Below, piece after piece: positions 8,919 to 15,426 of a stretch of DNA of 56,801 bases. Each line of letters opens with the position of its first letter. Position 1 is the first letter of the stretch. The position numbers and the translations under genes were made by a program. Under the pieces are notes generated by a model, which did no database searches, was not told the DNA's origin, and worked only from the letters and a program-made list of their open reading frames with translations. This DNA comes from a virus (taxonomy: Duplodnaviria > Heunggongvirae > Uroviricota > Caudoviricetes). The stretch lies in the IMG/VR virus record IMGVR_UViG_2529293216_000012; one strand, written 5' to 3'.

Positions 8919-9185
8919 ATGAGGTGTTATATGAATATGCAATCCTGCGGTAACAAAATGAATTTATTCGACTCCCTGAACAGCGCGCGCCGTCTGACCG
9001 AACTTGCCGGTGCGGTACTGGAACGCAGTAAGCGCTATCCGCAACGTTTTGCACTGAAAACCACGCCGCCGGTAGGCAACGTGCAGGGAACCGGTGAAAT
9101 TGAAATCACCATACAGACCAACGGCCTGCGCCGCCGTGTGAAGGCCACCCGCATCAGCGGCTGCACGGTTTACTGGGAGGTGTGA
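8919..9185 (+). CDS. hypothetical Mu-like early protein
   Basis: 88 aa ORF, contiguous with neighbours; no family recognised. Confidence 0.45.
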   Translation: MRCYMNMQSCGNKMNLFDSLNSARRLTELAGAVLERSKRYPQRFALKTTPPVGNVQGTGEIEITIQTNGLRRRVKATRISGCTVYWEV

Positions 9186-9186
9186 G

Positions 9187-9468
9187 GTGAAAAAAAATCT
9201 CATTGCATGGGCGTGGTCGAGTGGTCTTATTGAGTTTGGTTACGTCCTGCCGGAAGGTGCATTGCCGATAGTTGCCGGAAAGCCTGCCACGGTACGGCAT
9301 GTGATTGAGGTTATGGCGCGTCATGGACGTGATGAACAGGAGCAGTTACTGGTTCCGGGGATACCGGAAGCGGTGACGGAGGAAGAAGCCTTTAATGCCA
9401 TGATTCGGTTCTGCCGTGAGGTCAGACGCCGGGTCAGTTATCCAAACAGAACGAGGACCAGAGGATGA
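9187..9468 (+). CDS. hypothetical Mu-like early protein
   Basis: 93 aa, GTG start one nt after the upstream stop; no family recognised. Confidence 0.5.
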   Translation: MKKNLIAWAWSSGLIEFGYVLPEGALPIVAGKPATVRHVIEVMARHGRDEQEQLLVPGIPEAVTEEEAFNAMIRFCREVRRRVSYPNRTRTRG

Positions 9469-9737
9469 GTAAAGTCGTACGCATTATTTTCGAATACAAG
9501 GAGCACGTTATCCATAAAAACGCTGATGGAACAGTGCGCATGGGGGTAAGTCTGGACATACGTTCAACCGGGATAAAGCAGAAAGGTGATGGACCCGCCA
9601 TGATTTTTGGGGTGGTTATGCTCGCGGAAAGCAGAGACTTTGCTGAACTTGTGGCAATGAAAGCCAGTGCGCTCATGAAAGATATGAGCATGCGTTCCGG
9701 GGTTATTAAAGGTAATGAATTTAATCAGCAGGGGTAA
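9465..9737 (+). CDS. hypothetical early protein, paralog 1 of a tandem pair
   Basis: 90 aa, MSKVVRIIFEYKEHV...; shares its N-terminal motif with the next ORF. Confidence 0.55.
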   Translation: MSKVVRIIFEYKEHVIHKNADGTVRMGVSLDIRSTGIKQKGDGPAMIFGVVMLAESRDFAELVAMKASALMKDMSMRSGVIKGNEFNQQG

Positions 9738-9741
9738 TTCC

Positions 9742-10035
9742 ATGAGCAAAGTACGCGTTATTTTTGAATTTAAGCATGTTTCGCATGACGAAAAACCGGC
9801 AGGCAATGACTGTGTTGAAGTGCATGAAAAGATTGGTGTGGATGTAAAAACAGAACGTGATACGAATAACAGGCCGACGTCACTCTGTGACGTTTATGCA
9901 AGTATTCTCCAGTATCACAGTCCTGAAATTATTCAGTTTCTCTCAGCGGAATTTCAGGCATCTGTACAGGCTTTTGGGGCGGATGCCATCATTAAACGCC
10001 ACCGCGTGCATAAAGCATCAGGCACACTGCAATAA
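9742..10035 (+). CDS. hypothetical early protein, paralog 2 of a tandem pair
   Basis: Internal start of track ORF 9715..10035 (MSKVRVIFEFKHVSHDE) chosen by similarity to the preceding paralog. Confidence 0.5.
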   Translation: MSKVRVIFEFKHVSHDEKPAGNDCVEVHEKIGVDVKTERDTNNRPTSLCDVYASILQYHSPEIIQFLSAEFQASVQAFGADAIIKRHRVHKASGTLQ

Positions 10036-10046
10036 GGAAAAACAAA

Positions 10047-10577
10047 ATGGCTAAACGTGTTACAAAATTAAAGGCCGCAGCCGAGGCTGCACCGCAGACC
10101 CGCGAAGAAGTCAGCCGCGATATCCGTACCCTGGGCGATATTCAGCGAGAGGCGCTGCGGCTGGAAACGGCGATGAATGATGAAGTGGCAGAAATCACCG
10201 CCCGTTATACGCCGCAGATTGAAAACCTTAAAAAAGAAATCAAAGTGCTTTTTAAGGGGATTCAGGACTGGTGCAAAACCAACCGCGATGAGCTGACGAA
10301 CGGCGGCAAAACCAAAACAGCCAATCTGACCACCGGAACAGTATCATGGCGGCTGGGAAATCCATCATGCAGCGTCAGCCGTGATGTGGAAGGTGTGATT
10401 GAAATGCTGCGCCGTATGGGGCTTGAGCGATTCATCCGCACGAAAGAGGAAGTGAACAAGGAAGCGGTCCTGGCGGAGCCGGATGCAGTGAAAGGCATTG
10501 CCGGTATTAAGGTGAATAAAGGCGCTGAAAGTTTTTATGTCGAGCCTTTTGAACAGGACGCCGGACTGAATAAATAA
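10047..10577 (+). CDS. gam: Mu Gam-like (Ku-like) DNA-end-binding protein, host nuclease inhibitor
   Basis: 176 aa; strong resemblance to Mu Gam (RLETAMNDEVAEITARY...DELTNGGKTKTANLTTGTVSWR...ERFIRTKEEVNKEA). Confidence 0.9.
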   Translation: MAKRVTKLKAAAEAAPQTREEVSRDIRTLGDIQREALRLETAMNDEVAEITARYTPQIENLKKEIKVLFKGIQDWCKTNRDELTNGGKTKTANLTTGTVSWRLGNPSCSVSRDVEGVIEMLRRMGLERFIRTKEEVNKEAVLAEPDAVKGIAGIKVNKGAESFYVEPFEQDAGLNK

Positions 10578-10674
10578 CACCGCATTAAATCTTTAAATAT
10601 CACATCGTTTTAAGTATGGCGCTCGCGTCAGGGGACTGCCTGCGCCTGTAAACTGAAAATAAGGAACAGGATAT

Positions 10675-11217
10675 ATGGCATATTTTTATTTCAAATTAGA
10701 CCGTGTGCAGACAAATAAATATTTCACCAAATATCAACAGACTGTTTTACCGCTACGCAACAGTATTCTTCGGGCATTACTGAAAAATACAGGCGCTGCC
10801 GGATTGCGCTTAAAGCCGTTCGCCATGGACGTAATCAGTGAGTTTTATTTTTCTGGTTCTCTGCCTGCGGGCTGGCGTAAGCGCGATGATGTGGCTTTTA
10901 TCGGGGACGGACCGTGCTTTATTGCCAGACCTGATGAGTCATGCCCTGAAGGTCCGGCGATTGCCGCAATGATTGAAACCGCTGAACGTGAGTTAAGAAA
11001 GCGTCCTGATTTCCTTGTCTGGCTCTGTGAAAAGCTGGGGGTAATGAGAATCCCCTCCATGTTTAACACGGACTCCTGGTGGACCCCGTCGCTCTCCCGT
11101 GATGCCCTGTGCGTGGTGTTTAAAGTAGGCGCTTATGGCAGGGAAATAAAAGGGGGTATTCCTGAAGAATGCCAGGAAATTAAACATTCTGAATATGTGG
11201 CGCTGACGGAGGAATAA
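10675..11217 (+). CDS. hypothetical protein (accessory region)
   Basis: 180 aa ORF with an upstream GGA-rich RBS region; no family recognised. Confidence 0.55.
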   Translation: MAYFYFKLDRVQTNKYFTKYQQTVLPLRNSILRALLKNTGAAGLRLKPFAMDVISEFYFSGSLPAGWRKRDDVAFIGDGPCFIARPDESCPEGPAIAAMIETAERELRKRPDFLVWLCEKLGVMRIPSMFNTDSWWTPSLSRDALCVVFKVGAYGREIKGGIPEECQEIKHSEYVALTEE

Positions 11218-11220
11218 TTC

Positions 11221-11754
11221 ATGATTGATGCAAAAGTGCTTGAAGGGGTTAAAAGCTGGCTGCGTTTTTCTGGCCGTCTGACCAGTCGTTCTCTGGCAGA
11301 AAAAATGAATATGCCGCTATCCTCCATGGTTTATTTTCTGCGTGATGCGGTCGATGCCGGGGTGCTGACGGACCGTAACGGTTTTTATGATATTCCGCGT
11401 CCCCGCCCGGTGCAGGCGGTTCGTCGCAAATGCAGCCAGGAAGGTGCGGCTGATGATGTTCAGTGGTGCAGCTTCAGAAAATCCCTGCCGTGGATTGAGG
11501 GGCATGATATTCCGTCGATGGCGTGGGAATTTGCTCAGGGAGTACTGACCTGCGAAACCGTTTATGTGGTGGCTGAAGTTGATGAGCAGGCCATGAAAGA
11601 AGGCGTGCCCCAGTTTGTGATGGCGTATATCGACATTCGCCTGGGCGTCATTATCTGCGGCTTAAGCGGCTGGAACATCACCGGGCGCGTTCTGCGTTAC
11701 CTGATTATTGACCGGACAGCGGCATCGGCAGGGATATCTGCGGAGGTGGCGTAA
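11221..11754 (+). CDS. hypothetical protein with N-terminal winged-helix-like segment
   Basis: 177 aa; starts 4 nt after the upstream stop; N-terminus LTSRSLAEKMNMPLSSMVYFLRDAVDAGVL looks like an HTH. Confidence 0.55.
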   Translation: MIDAKVLEGVKSWLRFSGRLTSRSLAEKMNMPLSSMVYFLRDAVDAGVLTDRNGFYDIPRPRPVQAVRRKCSQEGAADDVQWCSFRKSLPWIEGHDIPSMAWEFAQGVLTCETVYVVAEVDEQAMKEGVPQFVMAYIDIRLGVIICGLSGWNITGRVLRYLIIDRTAASAGISAEVA

Positions 11755-12269
11755 TGTTCTTTAAAACATCAAACCCTTCCGCGCTGGCTGCGTGGCAAAA
11801 ATACCAGCAGGACTGCCAGAAAGTTAAGGATGAGGCAAAACGCCTTGAGGCCGTGCTGAATGTTGCGTGCCGGTCGGTATTTGTATCCGGTATCAGTGGA
11901 TTTTGCTTTAAGGGACTGCGTTTTACGGAGGACAAATATCCTTTTCATCGCGACTTATGGCGAAAACCGACTGCGTCGAATGGCTGGAGCTGCACACCGC
12001 GCACATCACGTATCCCTAAAACCCTGCGTGTTGCCTCTGATGAACTGAACAGTCTGTGGCGTGAATATTCGCCCGTCACGTATGCCAGAACCGATGCGCT
12101 GTTGTTCTGGCTGGGTATTGATTTCTCGGCAATCCTGTTTGGCCCTGTGAAGTGGTTCTGCGTTGACGATGTGATTTACCTTCAGTGCGGCGTAAAACCC
12201 GCAAAACAGAAAATGACCGAAATACTGTCTGATGAGTTTTATGCTGCTGAAAAGCGAGTCAGGGGGTGA
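11754..12269 (+). CDS. hypothetical protein (accessory region)
   Basis: 171 aa; start overlaps the upstream stop; no family recognised. Confidence 0.55.
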   Translation: MFFKTSNPSALAAWQKYQQDCQKVKDEAKRLEAVLNVACRSVFVSGISGFCFKGLRFTEDKYPFHRDLWRKPTASNGWSCTPRTSRIPKTLRVASDELNSLWREYSPVTYARTDALLFWLGIDFSAILFGPVKWFCVDDVIYLQCGVKPAKQKMTEILSDEFYAAEKRVRG

Positions 12270-12272
12270 TGC

Positions 12273-12824
12273 ATGATGAAATTACAACCCATGGGACTAA
12301 AAGGTCGCGCCCCCGCTCATGTCCGTCCGTGGACACCTGAAGAAGATGCGCTGCTGATTGCGCTTTATTCATCCACCCCGGTTAAGGATATTGCTGCCAG
12401 AATAAAAAGAACTGTCTGGGCTGTATATAACCGGACTGGTGTATTGCGCAGTTCATACCCGGAGTTACTGAAATATAAACACCCAAGATTTACACCTGAT
12501 GAAGATAAGTTTATTCGAAAAAATGCCAGAACAATGACCTGCCAGCAAATGGGAGAATATCTCGGACGTAATAAAGATTCTGTCAGATGTCGGGCAGGAA
12601 TGATTGGTGCTGGATTAACAAAGTGCGGAGAGTTACGCCCCGGCACGCGCATATCTGATGATGATGTACGTCTTATACGTGCGCTGCGTGATTCCGATTA
12701 CCCACGCCGTCTGTCATTCCGGGAAATTGGCGAAAAGTTTGGAATATCTGAACATTCTGCTCACGCAGTTTATTACCGTCGCCGGACTGCCGAGGACGCT
12801 GTATTACGGGAGTTAACGCCATGA
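12273..12824 (+). CDS. hypothetical DNA-binding protein with two Myb/SANT-like repeats and a C-terminal HTH
   Basis: 183 aa; RPWTPEEDALLIALY and RFTPDEDKFIRKN repeats, then LSFREIGEKFGISEHSAHAVYYRR. Confidence 0.55.
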   Translation: MMKLQPMGLKGRAPAHVRPWTPEEDALLIALYSSTPVKDIAARIKRTVWAVYNRTGVLRSSYPELLKYKHPRFTPDEDKFIRKNARTMTCQQMGEYLGRNKDSVRCRAGMIGAGLTKCGELRPGTRISDDDVRLIRALRDSDYPRRLSFREIGEKFGISEHSAHAVYYRRRTAEDAVLRELTP

Positions 12825-13006
12825 TAAAGAGACTTGTATTTTTCGCAATTTTCGTTCCGGTGTTGGGGGGTGGTTTTATATTTGCGATTACAGGAAACCT
12901 GTCCATGATGCCAGATATTTGGTTCTTTATCAGGATGTCGCTCTTCCTGTTTATTATGAATCTTCTTATCGACATATATATCCGTATTACTGGAAAACAT
13001 AAATGA
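12821..13006 (+). CDS. small hydrophobic protein (two predicted TM helices)
   Basis: 61 aa, strongly hydrophobic (LVFFAIFVPVLGGGFIFAI / FFIRMSLFLFIMNLLI); overlaps neighbours by 4 nt; AT-rich. Confidence 0.45.
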   Translation: MIKRLVFFAIFVPVLGGGFIFAITGNLSMMPDIWFFIRMSLFLFIMNLLIDIYIRITGKHK

Positions 13007-13377
13007 GAAAAATCACGTCCTTGTCAGAGTTACAGGAGATGAATATGAGTATTGAATTAAGATCGTCTTATGAGTATCGCAAATTTCTTATCGCCGGAGG
13101 CATGAAACCGGAAGATGTGGAAAAAATCGTTTCTTTTATGGATAAGGAATGTGATAAGCGGGATGTGTCAGAAATTATTATGGATGACATGATTCTGGAT
13201 TCAGTCGTGGCGTTAAGTCCGTTATGGATTGTGCATTCTCTTGCGGAAATTGCCAAAGGCACCGATAAACAGGCAGCTGTTGCTGCCCTTCAGACGCTTA
13301 ATGAAATGCGTATATCTCCACGCCCGACATTAATACAGATGATTTTGTCCAGTATGGAGGATAAAGCAAATGAATAG
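13003..13377 (+). CDS. hypothetical acidic protein
   Basis: 124 aa, translationally coupled, AT-rich codon usage unlike the flanking phage genes. Confidence 0.5.
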   Translation: MRKITSLSELQEMNMSIELRSSYEYRKFLIAGGMKPEDVEKIVSFMDKECDKRDVSEIIMDDMILDSVVALSPLWIVHSLAEIAKGTDKQAAVAALQTLNEMRISPRPTLIQMILSSMEDKANE

Positions 13378-13567
13378 TCTACCCGCTGGATGGGCGCGCC
13401 CTCTGATGGCTAAGAAGCATCATTTTTTTAAAACTGGCGATAATATCAGTATATGTAGGCGGTGGTTATATCTGGCTCATAATCGCGAGCCGGATACATT
13501 TGAAAGCCCTGATGACTGTGCCGAATGTCGCAGAAGACTGAATAAGGAGAAAGATAATGGACAATAG
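13370..13567 (+). CDS. small hypothetical protein with Cys pairs (possible zinc ribbon)
   Basis: 65 aa; ICRRW...DDCAECRRR; overlaps neighbours. Confidence 0.4.
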   Translation: MNSLPAGWARPLMAKKHHFFKTGDNISICRRWLYLAHNREPDTFESPDDCAECRRRLNKEKDNGQ

Positions 13568-13853
13568 TTCTCTGTTGTTCTGGTGCTTATATATCACATC
13601 CTTTTTCGGCGCATTTGTTATTACCCGGTGGTTATGTCGAAAAATCATCTGCTTTTTTGATAAAAGACATCTGGTTGAACGGGCGGCTGATGCGCTCATT
13701 CAGCAGGCCATTGTGTTATATAGCGGTGAATTTTTCTGCCGGATAACAACCAGAGATGGCTGGCACATAATGATTATTCCACCAACACACCATGCCCGGT
13801 GGGATGAGGCAGAAAAGGCTTTCCATGTCCGTAAAAAGGTAAATACGGTATGA
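13557..13853 (+). CDS. hypothetical protein with N-terminal TM helix
   Basis: 98 aa; LLFWCLYITSFFGAFVI hydrophobic N-terminus; overlaps the gemA-like start. Confidence 0.45.
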   Translation: MDNSSLLFWCLYITSFFGAFVITRWLCRKIICFFDKRHLVERAADALIQQAIVLYSGEFFCRITTRDGWHIMIIPPTHHARWDEAEKAFHVRKKVNTV

Positions 13854-14359
13854 GAGGAAAACTGATATCCGCCATTCATGTGGCAAAGCGCGAGCTTGCC
13901 CTGGATGATGAGACTTATACATCCGCGCTGCTGGCAGCCACCGGCAAAACCAGCTGCCGGGATATGTCACCGGATGAGTTATCCCGCGTGCTGGATGTTT
14001 TCAAAAAACGCGGTTTTAAAGTGCGTCAGAACCCGGTTAACCGGGCCTTAAAACCGGGTACGGTGACCGCCAAAATTCGCGCCATCTGGAAGGTGATGCA
14101 CCGGCAGGGCTTTATCACCGATGGTGCGGAAACCGCCCTTAACCGCTGGGTGAAATCGCAGACGGCCGCGCAAAACGGCGGCGAAGGTGTGGCAAACTGG
14201 CAGTGGCTGGAGCAACACCCCGCCCTGGCCTCAGATGTGCTGGAGCGTCTCAAGCGATGGCACCGCCGCAAAATGCTGGCCGCGATGGGAATGCCCGAAC
14301 GCACGCTGATGGGGTATGACGCCGTTTGCAGGCAGTATGAAAAATCACTTCCCCGTTAA
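13850..14359 (+). CDS. gemA: Mu GemA/gp16-like regulatory protein (DUF1018)
   Basis: 169 aa; position immediately before mor and similarity to Mu gp16. Confidence 0.75.
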   Translation: MRGKLISAIHVAKRELALDDETYTSALLAATGKTSCRDMSPDELSRVLDVFKKRGFKVRQNPVNRALKPGTVTAKIRAIWKVMHRQGFITDGAETALNRWVKSQTAAQNGGEGVANWQWLEQHPALASDVLERLKRWHRRKMLAAMGMPERTLMGYDAVCRQYEKSLPR

Positions 14360-14363
14360 CTCC

Positions 14364-14394
14364 AAATCCCGCCACAACGCGGGATTTTTATTTT
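14364..14394 (+). terminator. rho-independent terminator-like hairpin between gemA and mor
   Basis: ATCCCGC-cacaac-GCGGGAT 7-bp stem (14366-14385) followed by TTTTTATTTT. Confidence 0.5.
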
Positions 14395-14428
14395 AAACTT
14401 ACCGGGAACGCGAGAACCGGAGGCTGAT

Positions 14429-14854
14429 ATGGCAGAAACTCAGATGAGCATGTTTGGTGGTGACAGTGAGCAACTGCACGCCCTTATCGACCGCCTTGAT
14501 GACATCCCTGATGATGTTCTCAAAAAGAACTGGCCGCGGACCCTGTCAGAACTGGTTGAAGTCACCGGCGCAGAACTTCAGCGTCAGGGGATTGAGCCGG
14601 TACTGGCCGGTAAACTGGCACGCAAGGTGGCTGCGGCTCAGGCAGCCTATATGGGCGGACGGGGTTATTACCTGCCGGTCGGGGAATCTCTCTTTGCCGA
14701 GCTGCGAAACAATGAGATATTTTCGCGCTGGGACCGGGGCGAGAAAATTGAATCCCTTCGCCGCCATTACCGGATGTCAGAAACCCAGATTTATACCGTC
14801 ATACGCGAACAGCGCCGTCTGCATCTGGCAAGAACGCAACCGCCACTTTTCTGA
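14429..14854 (+). CDS. mor: Mor/C-family transcriptional activator
   Basis: 141 aa; C-terminal HTH (YRMSETQIYTVIREQRR) typical of Mu Mor/C; precedes the lysis and late genes. Confidence 0.82.
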   Translation: MAETQMSMFGGDSEQLHALIDRLDDIPDDVLKKNWPRTLSELVEVTGAELQRQGIEPVLAGKLARKVAAAQAAYMGGRGYYLPVGESLFAELRNNEIFSRWDRGEKIESLRRHYRMSETQIYTVIREQRRLHLARTQPPLF

Positions 14855-14925
14855 TATTCCGCAAAGCCTGCCGCCTCTCCTTCACCGTTACGCTGACTCA
14901 GAGAACATCATGAGACAGCGTAACA

Positions 14926-15426
14926 ATGCCAAAACTCCCCGCACCACTGCGTAAAAAGCTGATTGCCCTTGTTCTGGCCGGTGCCGGGACGTTCACGATT
15001 GCCACGCATTACACCGGTTACTGGGAAGGGAAAGAAAACTCCACGTATATCGATCCCACCGGTACACCCACCATCTGTTACGGCCATACCGGCCCGGATG
15101 TGAAACCGGGTATGACCCTGACAGATGAAGAATGCCTGGAACTACTGGAAAAGGACATGAAATGGGCCTTTGCGGCCATTGATCGGCGTGTTCAGGTGCC
15201 GCTTACCCGTGGTCAGACGGTGGCGCTGGCTTCGTGGATCTTCTGGGCCGGTGAAACGAACTTTCGCAACTCCACGCTTCTGCGCCTGATCAATGCCGGG
15301 CAGATGCCCGCGTCCTGTAAGCAGTATATCCGCTGGATTTATTCAAAGGGGGTGAAACTCCCCGGCCTTGAGGCCCGCCGTTCGGCGGATGAATGGTTAT
15401 GTCGCTACGACTTGCCGAAAGTCTGA
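14926..15426 (+). CDS. lys: SAR-type endolysin (T4-lysozyme fold, GH24)
   Basis: 166 aa; N-terminal Gly/Ala-rich weakly hydrophobic segment (LIALVLAGAGTFTIA), then catalytic E-8aa-D-5aa-T triad (EGKENSTYIDPTGTPT). Confidence 0.82.
   Translation: MPKLPAPLRKKLIALVLAGAGTFTIATHYTGYWEGKENSTYIDPTGTPTICYGHTGPDVKPGMTLTDEECLELLEKDMKWAFAAIDRRVQVPLTRGQTVALASWIFWAGETNFRNSTLLRLINAGQMPASCKQYIRWIYSKGVKLPGLEARRSADEWLCRYDLPKV

What the first reader, a model, noticed from the sequence alone, without database searches (positions are those of the whole stretch)
12350..13853. AT-rich island with small membrane and Cys-pair proteins inside the Mu-like early operon
From roughly the middle of ORF 12273..12824 to 13853 the sequence is visibly AT-richer than the flanking phage DNA (for example ttttcgcaattttcgttcc..., tatatttgcgattacagg..., atatatatccgtattactgg...). 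It encodes four overlapping small ORFs: a 61-aa two-helix hydrophobic protein, a 124-aa acidic protein, a 65-aa protein with Cys pairs and a 98-aa protein with an N-terminal TM helix. Compositional deviation plus small membrane proteins is the usual signature of a recently acquired moron such as superinfection exclusion, abortive infection or a toxin-antitoxin pair. The composition claim is by eye, not computed.
Basis: partly seen in the sequence, partly recalled or inferred. Interest (0 to 1): 0.6.

Follow-up and report, generated by a model that had tools for sequence, protein, structure and literature searches.

The report
Accessory gene slot, Mu-like prophage
The AT-rich stretch is real and holds four genuine small genes of unknown function, but it is an ordinary cassette-swapping slot in the early operon of an E. 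coli Mu-like prophage, not a self-contained defence "moron".

Summary
Window 12821-13853 is 41.5% GC, against 50% for the early region and 57% for the late region of this Sp18-type Mu-like prophage. The four ORFs are real genes, with strong Shine-Dalgarno sites and dN/dS of 0.08-0.26. They lie between a triple-HTH gene (12273-12824) and gemA (13850). More than 30 related E. coli prophages carry at least six different cassette combinations in this interval, with breakpoints at gene boundaries and independently reassorting alleles. Mu and SfMu use the same gp12-to-gemA slot for other small genes. The genes overlap (ATGA junctions) and show no promoter or terminator signal of their own. They therefore read as part of the repressor-controlled early transcript, not as an autonomous moron. 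There are no Pfam, PADLOC or PDB matches. The 65-aa protein belongs to a large unnamed family (982 clusters) with a conserved His/Cys3 pattern. That family also occurs in virulent Pseudomonas phages and in lambdoid non-essential early regions, which argues for a lytic-cycle role. The most likely reading is a set of early accessory effectors for host takeover, counter-defence or inter-phage competition. Biochemical function is unresolved. This is a new member of a known kind and of low to moderate interest.

The parts
12273..12824 (+). Left border gene: 183-aa DNA-binding protein with three HTH repeats (2 Myb/SANT-like plus 1 AsnC-type). It is present in all Sp18-type relatives examined, in two alleles about 71% identical, and has low GC3 (.375).
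   Evidence: Weak Pfam Myb/HTH_AsnC hits and phrog_323 'D5-like regulator' at E 2e-52. Weak similarity to Mu gp9. Allele pattern. dN/dS 0.24-0.30.
12821..13006 (+). Cassette a: 61-aa basic protein (pI 10.4) with two hydrophobic helices. Predicted N-in/C-in hairpin in the inner membrane. GC 36%.
   Evidence: Hydropathy. GGGAG Shine-Dalgarno and ATGA overlap with the HTH stop codon. dN/dS 0.17-0.26 from 12 synonymous and 9 non-synonymous differences. Found only in these prophages; phrog_19804 at E 6.5e-5; no Pfam hit. Topology is inferred from the positive-inside rule.
13007..13044 (+). Junction where cassettes b, c and d (75, 103 and 116 aa) are present in relatives. 13003-13013 is the first 11 nt of cassette b, left behind by a deletion. 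It creates the in-frame 124-aa ORF.
   Evidence: Homology to L004/L010 stops at 13013 and resumes at 13032. Junction sequences.
13045..13377 (+). Cassette e: 110-aa acidic, all-helical protein (the ORF is open from 13003). It belongs to a family shared with SfMu gp14 and other Muvirus prophages at 33-37% identity, in the same slot.
   Evidence: AGGAG 7 nt upstream. phrog_1988 at E 5e-44. SfMu and Yersinia Mu-like homologues. dN/dS 0.13-0.18. AF2 model has pLDDT of only 52, with six helices.
13370..13567 (+). Cassette f: 65-aa basic protein with a conserved GW-(A/G)-x-P ... K-x-H-(F/Y)-F ... S-x-C-G-(R/K)-(W/Y) ... C-x-x-C motif. Probable His/Cys3 zinc site (inferred). Member of a large family with no Pfam model.
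   Evidence: Alignments. 982 50%-identity clusters at E<=1e-3. Present in Pbunavirus, Klebsiella and Pantoea phages and in lambdoid ea/nin-like regions. AF2 pLDDT 76: small beta unit plus C-terminal helix. dN/dS 0.08-0.13.
13557..13853 (+). Cassette g: 98-aa protein with an N-terminal membrane anchor (residues 6-24). The C-terminal domain is predicted to be cytoplasmic. Two alleles about 51% identical share a conserved anchor.
   Evidence: Hydropathy. AAGGAG Shine-Dalgarno, and stop codon overlapping the gemA start. Alleles and saturated dS. phrog_17269 only. Topology is inferred.
13850..14359 (+). Right border gene: GemA (Mu gp16 family), GC 57%.
   Evidence: Pfam PF06252 at E 3e-30. 44% identical to Mu GemA.
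14364..14387 (+). First terminator-like hairpin downstream of the island (9-bp stem plus T-run), between gemA and mor.

Best explanation
The island is the current filling of a recombination-prone accessory slot of Mu-type phages, between the conserved gp11/gp12(+HTH) genes and gemA.

Shown: it consists of four independent RBS-plus-ORF cassettes (a 61 aa, e 110 aa, f 65 aa, g 98 aa). These are exchanged, deleted and re-assorted among related prophages at short shared junction motifs.

Inferred from sequence: the cassettes have no transcription signals of their own and are translationally coupled to their neighbours. They would therefore be made from the early promoter only after infection or induction, and kept off by the prophage repressor.

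Inferred function: dispensable early effectors that adjust the host cell for lytic growth. The 65-aa protein, probably zinc-binding, and the 110-aa helical acidic protein would act as soluble binders or inhibitors of host or defence proteins. The 61-aa hairpin and the 98-aa membrane-anchored protein would act at the inner membrane, for example by blocking envelope functions or entry of competing phages during the lytic cycle.
For: Shown:
- Real genes. All four have Shine-Dalgarno sites and show purifying selection, dN/dS 0.08-0.26.
- Variable slot. At least six arrangements occur between flanks that are 88-99% identical at nucleotide level.
- Breakpoints fall at 12830, 13013/13032, 13289 (the one inside a gene, cassette e), 13554 and 13874.
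- Alleles of the HTH gene and of g combine freely with neighbours that are otherwise identical.
- Shared junction motifs and a remnant of cassette b are visible.
- The same slot is variable in Mu, SfMu and other Muvirus prophages and shares cassette families e, h and DUF2513.
- Low GC compared with the flanks.
- Operon membership. ATGA and 8-11 nt overlaps join the genes. There are 4 promoter-like sites against 7.8 expected, none convincing on the + strand inside the island. The first good terminator lies after gemA.

Bearing on a lytic-cycle role:
- Cassette f's family occurs in Pbunavirus phages (268 Pseudomonas phage records).
- It also occurs in the non-essential early regions of lambdoid-type prophages, next to Ead/Ea22, DUF551, dATP/dGTP pyrophosphohydrolase and GemA genes.

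Precedent:
- Pseudomonas Mu-like phages carry 34-100-codon accessory ORFs in regions of genomic plasticity. These lie mostly in the early arm, some in low-GC valleys, and some are anti-CRISPRs (PMC4378225).
- The small proteins Aqs1 and Tip of such phages disable the pilus receptor (PMC13436744).
Against: - No function is demonstrated for any of the four proteins. There is no Pfam, NCBIfam, PADLOC or PDB sequence match.
- The 110-aa model is unreliable.
- Promoter absence rests on a consensus scan only. AT-rich DNA can carry weak promoters. One 9/12 match on the + strand lies at 13743-13771, upstream of gemA, where Mu has a documented semi-early promoter.
- Expression timing was not measured.
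- At synonymous sites the compositional deviation from the other early genes is modest.
Confidence: 0.6

Rival explanations
1. One reading: a recently acquired moron expressed from the prophage. It would protect the lysogen by superinfection exclusion, abortive infection or a toxin-antitoxin pair, with the two membrane proteins as effectors.
For: Low GC relative to the flanks. Two small inner-membrane proteins. Present or absent between close relatives. Lambdoid morons share these traits (background in PMC4378225).
Against: No own promoter or terminator was found, and the genes are translationally coupled inside the repressor-controlled early operon. There are no PADLOC or Pfam defence, toxin or antitoxin hits. 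The cassettes occur in different combinations: g without f, e without a, and f alone in other phages, so there is no obligate pair. Cassette f's family is in virulent Pbunavirus phages. Acquisition is not recent: dS is 0.18-0.39 and g has ancient alleles.
Confidence: 0.15
2. Narrower version of the main explanation. The two membrane proteins (61 aa and 98 aa) act early in lytic growth to exclude superinfecting phages. They would be architecturally analogous to T4 Imm (small protein with 2 transmembrane helices) and Sp (N-terminally anchored).
For: Size and predicted membrane topology. Early-operon position. Two deeply diverged alleles of the 98-aa protein's soluble domain behind a conserved anchor, as expected for a protein that must match a varying partner.
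Against: No sequence similarity to any exclusion protein. The positive-inside rule places the 98-aa protein's domain in the cytoplasm, unlike T4 Sp (inference). The allele divergence has dN/dS 0.14 with saturated dS, so it shows an old replacement and no detectable positive selection. The T4 comparison is from my own knowledge, not a test.
Confidence: 0.2
3. The ORFs are conserved core Mu early genes, and the low GC is only a by-product of amino-acid composition.
For: The GC dip of the 61-aa gene is mostly at codon positions 1 and 2. Cassette e has homologues in SfMu-type phages.
Against: Mu itself has non-homologous genes here. At least six alternative fillings exist among near-identical prophages. 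GC3 is also lower than in gp11, gp12 and GemA.
Confidence: 0.03
4. Non-functional spacer: chance ORFs in decaying AT-rich DNA.
For: There are no database annotations beyond 'hypothetical protein'.
Against: dN/dS is 0.08-0.26 with 7-13 synonymous differences per gene. All four have Shine-Dalgarno sites. Each belongs to a PHROG family. The 65-aa family has 982 clusters.
Confidence: 0.02

Closest known systems
Regions of genomic plasticity with accessory ORFs in Pseudomonas Mu-like phages (Cazares et al. 2014, PMC4378225)
   Same: Short ORFs (34-100 codons) sit at fixed positions between conserved genes, mostly in the early (left) arm. Content differs between otherwise syntenic genomes, some regions coincide with low-GC valleys, and most ORFs have unknown function.
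   Different: Different phage lineage (enterobacterial myovirus-type Mu relatives rather than D3112/DMS3 siphoviruses). No sequence homology between the cassettes. No anti-CRISPR or other function has been assigned here.
Phage Mu semi-essential early region, genes gp13 (E14), gp14 (E15) and Mu_54 between gp12 and gemA
   Same: Same position between homologous gp11/gp12 and GemA. Both hold small genes of unknown function and have lower GC than the flanks (.455-.48 against .53-.55). SfMu-type phages carry a homologue of the 110-aa cassette there.
   Different: The four window proteins have no detectable similarity to Mu gp13, gp14 or Mu_54. The window has an extra triple-HTH gene, and no intergenic promoter region before gemA.
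Lambdoid-phage morons (Juhala/Hendrix concept, as summarised in PMC4378225)
   Same: Extra DNA between genes that are adjacent in relatives, with deviant base composition.
   Different: Morons are defined as carrying their own promoter and terminator, and are often expressed from the prophage. Neither signal was found here, and the genes are coupled to the early operon.
Aqs1/Tip of DMS3/D3112-type Mu-like phages (PMC13436744)
   Same: Small accessory proteins of transposable phages that act on host machinery to the phage's advantage. They give a functional precedent for what such cassettes can do.
   Different: No sequence or structural relation was tested or found. Their target, the type IV pilus ATPase PilB, is not a Mu receptor pathway in E. 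coli.
T4 Imm and Sp superinfection-exclusion proteins (own knowledge, not tested)
   Same: Early-made, very small inner-membrane proteins: one with two helices, one N-terminally anchored.
   Different: No homology. The predicted orientation of the 98-aa protein's domain is cytoplasmic.

Membership tests
Moron (autonomous 'more DNA' unit) | Inserted between genes that are adjacent in related phages | tested here: met
   Cassettes are present or absent between HTH/gp12 and gemA in relatives.
Moron (autonomous 'more DNA' unit) | Own promoter and terminator flanking the insert | tested here: not met
   The consensus scan found 4 promoter-like sites in 9000-15200 against 7.8 expected, none upstream of the cassettes on the + strand. 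There is no terminator before 14364. Start and stop codons overlap. This is a scan only, not an experiment.
Moron (autonomous 'more DNA' unit) | Nucleotide composition different from neighbours | tested here: met
   41.5% GC against 50% (early) and 57% (late). GC3 .427 against .53-.65 in the flanking genes.
Moron (autonomous 'more DNA' unit) | Expression from the repressed prophage | not testable with these tools
   Needs RNA-seq or 5'-end mapping of a lysogen.
Accessory ORFs in regions of genomic plasticity of Mu-like phages | Short ORFs at positions that are non-homologous between otherwise syntenic genomes | tested here: met
   Breakpoints at 12830, 13013/13032, 13289, 13554 and 13874 between flanks 88-99% identical. 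ORFs of 61-116 codons.
Accessory ORFs in regions of genomic plasticity of Mu-like phages | Located in the early (left) arm, often in a low-GC valley | tested here: met
   Lies between gam/gp11/gp12 and gemA/mor. Second-lowest GC window of the 56.8 kb.
Core Mu early genes gp13-gp15 | Sequence homology to Mu gp13, gp14 or Mu_54 | tested here: not met
   BLASTP best E-values are 0.26-5.5. Only cassette e matches SfMu gp14, which Mu lacks.
Toxin-antitoxin module | Obligate co-occurring gene pair | tested here: not met
   Observed combinations are a|e|f|g, c|d|e|f|g, c|g and c|d|e'|DUF2513. Cassette f occurs alone in other phages.
Toxin-antitoxin module | Homology to a known toxin or antitoxin family | tested here: not met
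   No Pfam, NCBIfam or PADLOC hits.
Known anti-phage defence / abortive-infection systems (PADLOC-DB 2.0) | Match to a defence-system protein model | tested here: not met
   0 families at E<=0.1 for all the proteins.
Superinfection-exclusion membrane proteins (T4 Imm/Sp type) | Small inner-membrane protein | tested here: met
   Hydropathy shows two segments in the 61-aa protein and one N-terminal segment in the 98-aa protein. No dedicated transmembrane predictor was available.
Superinfection-exclusion membrane proteins (T4 Imm/Sp type) | Sequence homology or demonstrated exclusion | tested here: not met
   No Pfam hit for either protein at E<=0.1. The phenotype is not testable here.
Zinc-binding small phage proteins (treble-clef/zinc-ribbon type) for the 65-aa protein | Four conserved metal ligands in knuckle/helix positions | tested here: inconclusive
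   H18, C29, C50 and C53 are conserved among the relatives read, and C50-x-x-C53 lies at the start of the C-terminal helix in the model. Model coordinates could not be inspected, there is no significant fold match and metal content is unknown.

The most novel reading that the evidence does not exclude
The 65-aa protein (13370-13567) would represent a large phage protein family that has no Pfam model. The family has 982 clusters at 50% identity and is mostly made of stand-alone 60-85-aa proteins. It carries the GW-x-x-P / K-x-H-(F/Y)-F / S-x-C-G / C-x-x-C signature. It is shared by temperate Mu-like and lambdoid phages and by virulent Pseudomonas myoviruses. On this reading it acts as a broadly useful inhibitor of a conserved host or defence protein. 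The neighbouring fast-reassorting cassettes, including the two membrane proteins, would then be further undescribed counter-defence or exclusion effectors.
Probability: 0.3. Interest if true: 0.55.

Novelty: new member of a known kind. Interest (0 to 1): 0.3.

Why it matters
The result mainly tidies up the annotation. It shows where the flexible gene pool of E. coli O157-type Mu-like prophages sits. It also shows that exchange happens in RBS-plus-ORF units, and that these genes should be read as early lytic accessory genes rather than lysogenic-conversion genes.

The practical value is a short, well-delimited candidate list for functional screens: four proteins here, plus at least six alternative cassettes in relatives. 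The widespread 65-aa family is the best single target, because a function found for it would transfer to hundreds of phages of Enterobacteria and Pseudomonas.

Tried and rejected
Searches that returned nothing useful:
- Pfam, NCBIfam, PADLOC and PDB sequence searches gave nothing for the four proteins. PHROGs returned only 'unknown function' families.
- The AF2 model of the 110-aa protein was too poor to search (pLDDT 52).
- Foldseek against viral models returned only uncharacterised homologues.
- The afdb50 library was unavailable.
- Rfam found no RNA family in 11500-15000.
- A scan of species-representative genomes with the 110-aa family found nothing. The 65-aa family gave only three Enterobacterial loci there.
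- Literature searches by accession number found nothing.
- Ten of the longer 65-aa family members were scanned. The only added domain to pass Pfam's own cut-off was DUF551, in one protein. A second weak hit (End_beta_propel, 18.1 bits against a cut-off of 24) fell below its cut-off.

Ideas considered and rejected or left as leads:
- Kunitz/BPTI resemblance of the 65-aa family. Pfam gave E 0.012 in 5 of 16 members, the PDB profile search E about 0.3, and hhalign probability 9.6%. This is not significant and the fold search does not support it, so I keep it only as a lead.
- Terminase-small-subunit-like or HEAT-like reading of the 110-aa protein. This rests on visual motif similarity and one source's name, with no statistical support.
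- Holin or type I toxin reading of the 61-aa protein. I rejected it as unsupported: the gene is in the early operon and there is no homology.
Full report
- repressor, ner-like gene, transposase A, B, small early genes and Gam (10047-10577);
- a 180-aa protein, a Gp11-like protein (11221-11754) and a Gp12-like protein (11754-12269);
- a 183-aa HTH protein (12273-12824);
- the four small ORFs of the finding;
- GemA (13850-14359), Mor (14429-14854) and lysozyme.
Against phage Mu itself, gp11, gp12 and GemA are 63%, 54% and 44% identical. The genes between gp12 and gemA in Mu (gp13, gp14, Mu_54) show no similarity to those in the window.

Observation. The AT-rich island is real.
- Window 12821-13853 is 41.5% GC. 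The early-region mean for windows of the same size is 50.0% (sd 3.7) and the late-region mean is 56.7% (sd 2.8).
- It is the second-lowest such window in the 56.8 kb.
- The extreme trough (36% at 12800-13200) is largely due to the hydrophobic amino-acid content of the 61-aa protein. Its GC at codon positions 1 and 2 is .355 and .29.
- At third positions the island averages .427. gp11, gp12 and GemA are .57.53 and .65. The other early genes average .523 (sd .080) and the late genes .610 (sd .064).
- By GC3 the low-GC block already includes the HTH gene (.375).
- The four ORFs are at the stated coordinates. Their described properties hold: two hydrophobic helices, an acidic protein (pI 4.85), and an N-terminal hydrophobic anchor.
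- The 65-aa protein has three cysteines, not several pairs.

Are they genes? Yes.
- Each has a good Shine-Dalgarno sequence: GGGAG, AGGAG, GGAGG and AAGGAG.
- Comparison with diverged copies gives dN/dS of 0.08-0.26, with 7-13 synonymous differences per gene.
- Each matches a PHROG family of unknown function.
- The 124-aa ORF most likely starts at 13045 (110 aa). AGGAG lies 7 nt upstream and PGAP annotates that start.
- Its N-terminal extension begins with the first 11 nt of a different cassette (b, 'MRKI...'). That cassette is present in full in relatives, whose homology to the window stops at 13013 and resumes at 13032.

What the region is. I compared the interval from the HTH gene to gemA in more than 30 related loci from complete genomes, IMG/VR and metagenomes. 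They show at least six arrangements:
- a|e|f|g (the window);
- c|d|e|f|g;
- a|b|c|d|e|f|g;
- c|d|e'|DUF2513 (antisense);
- c|g;
- c|h|antisense-79aa, where h is a Mu gp14 homologue.
Five of the six breakpoints relative to the window lie at or within about 25 nt of gene boundaries (12830, 13013/13032, 13554, 13874); the sixth, at 13289, lies inside cassette e. The flanks are 88-99% identical. Alleles reassort independently. The HTH gene exists as two alleles about 71% identical. Cassette g exists as two alleles about 51% identical with saturated dS. Either allele can sit next to a, e and f copies that are 98-100% identical to the window's. Junctions share short RBS-containing motifs such as acGGGAGgtgaat, which could serve as microhomology.

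True Muvirus prophages use the same gp12-to-gemA slot for gp13|h|Mu_54 (Mu), gp13|e-like|h (SfMu) or gp13|e-like|DUF2513. The slot is therefore a plasticity region common to Mu-type phages, and the window holds one of its fillings. Apart from a sub-threshold DUF2513 match for one antisense cassette, none of the alternative cassettes has a Pfam assignment, and their PHROG families are all of unknown function.

Expression logic (inferred).
- The cassette genes overlap their neighbours. ATGA overlaps occur at 12821, 13003 and 13850, with 8-nt and 11-nt overlaps at 13370 and 13557.
- A consensus scan found fewer promoter-like sites than in shuffled sequence, and none placed to drive the cassettes. 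The first convincing terminator-like hairpin is at 14364-14387, after gemA.
- The genes therefore read as part of the early transcript. In Mu-type phages that transcript is shut off by the repressor in lysogens (established knowledge for Mu; regulatory features listed).
- This does not fit the strict definition of a moron, which has its own promoter and terminator (as summarised in PMC4378225).

The individual proteins.
- a (61 aa). Basic, with two hydrophobic helices. Predicted N-in/C-in hairpin by the positive-inside rule. Found only in these prophages.
- e (110 aa). Acidic and all-helical. The AF2 model is unreliable (pLDDT 52). Shared at 33-37% identity with SfMu-type phages.
- f (65 aa). 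This is the widespread one.
  - tblastn finds it in 287 phage records. These include 268 Pseudomonas phages, mainly Pbunavirus (virulent, by my own knowledge), plus Klebsiella and Pantoea phages.
  - IMG/VR relatives sit in dense arrays of small co-directional genes next to Ead/Ea22, DUF551, dATP/dGTP pyrophosphohydrolase or GemA genes.
  - An exhaustive profile search finds 982 clusters at E<=1e-3. Most are stand-alone 60-85-aa proteins. A few have unrelated N- or C-terminal extensions, one of which is a DUF551 domain.
  - The conserved positions are G7, W8, P11, K16, H18, F20, S27, C29, W/Y32, C50 and C53.
  - The AF2 model (pLDDT 76) is a small beta unit followed by a helix that starts at the CxxC.
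  - A His/Cys3 zinc site is a reasonable inference but was not shown.
  - Fold searches were uninformative.
- g (98 aa). A conserved N-terminal anchor with a variable C-terminal domain. The charge distribution predicts that the domain faces the cytoplasm. Restricted to these prophages.

Interpretation. The evidence best supports a set of dispensable early accessory effectors in a recombination hot spot. This is the enterobacterial counterpart of the regions of genomic plasticity described in Pseudomonas Mu-like phages. Those regions hold 34-100-codon ORFs, lie mostly in the early arm, sometimes fall in low-GC valleys, and include anti-CRISPRs (PMC4378225). Aqs1 and Tip show what such small proteins of transposable phages can do (PMC13436744).

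- A toxin-antitoxin pair or abortive infection is unsupported. There are no family hits and no obligate pairing.
- Protection of the lysogen is unlikely without expression in the lysogen.
- Exclusion of competing phages by the two membrane proteins during lytic growth remains open.
- 'Recent acquisition' is not supported. The cassettes show as much synonymous divergence between prophage lineages as the flanking genes, or more.

Limits.
- No experiment or transcript data were available.
- Promoter absence rests on a consensus scan.
- Membrane topology rests on hydropathy and charge only.
- The function of every cassette remains unknown.

Verdict. This is a known kind of feature, a phage accessory-gene slot, in a lineage where it had not been laid out in this detail. 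Interest is 0.3. The 65-aa family is the most worthwhile follow-up.

Noticed in passing
[not shown]
   Followed up: partly
[not shown]
   Followed up: partly
window 14364-14387: A strong terminator-like hairpin (9-bp stem, T-run) lies between gemA and mor. In Mu, gemA overlaps mor and the early terminator follows mor. In this lineage mor may therefore need its own promoter or read-through.
   Followed up: no
window 9188-9399, 9742-10035 and 10648-11175: The same early operon has other variable spots. In the Mu-like insert of an Stx1a phage record (L008), two stretches are non-homologous. The 97-aa gene at 9742-10035 (GC3 .38-.39) has a 60%-identical allele in L016. The 180-aa gene at 10675-11217 is replaced by a DUF5420 protein in L015 and SfMu.
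   Followed up: no
window 12273-12824: The gene at the left border of the slot encodes a protein with three HTH repeats (two Myb/SANT-like, one AsnC-type). It occurs as two alleles about 71% identical (dS about 0.6-0.7) that combine freely with any slot content. Mu has a shorter relative (gp9) at another position. A homologue also lies in the Klebsiella phage that carries the 65-aa gene.
   Followed up: partly
window 13003-13044: The 124-aa reading frame is a by-product of a deletion. Its first 11 nt are the start of cassette b (75 aa in L010), fused in frame to cassette e.
   Followed up: yes
window 13370-13567: The 65-aa family shows a weak, non-significant sequence resemblance to Kunitz/BPTI domains, with C29 and C50 aligned to the BPTI C30-C51 disulfide pair. 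Pfam gave E 0.012 in 5 of 16 members and hhalign probability 9.6%. The fold search does not support it.
   Followed up: partly
L015 5598-6295 (E. coli 2012EL-2448): In one relative an IS1A element has inserted inside this same slot, just upstream of gemA.
   Followed up: no
L013 about 1690-1737 and L005 4688-4954 / L013 2006-2245: Some slot variants keep only the 3' end of a Mu gp13-like zinc-ribbon gene. Several carry an antisense gene (79-88 aa, phrog_32893/8747) overlapping the region that the Mu record annotates as the + strand ORF Mu_54.
   Followed up: no
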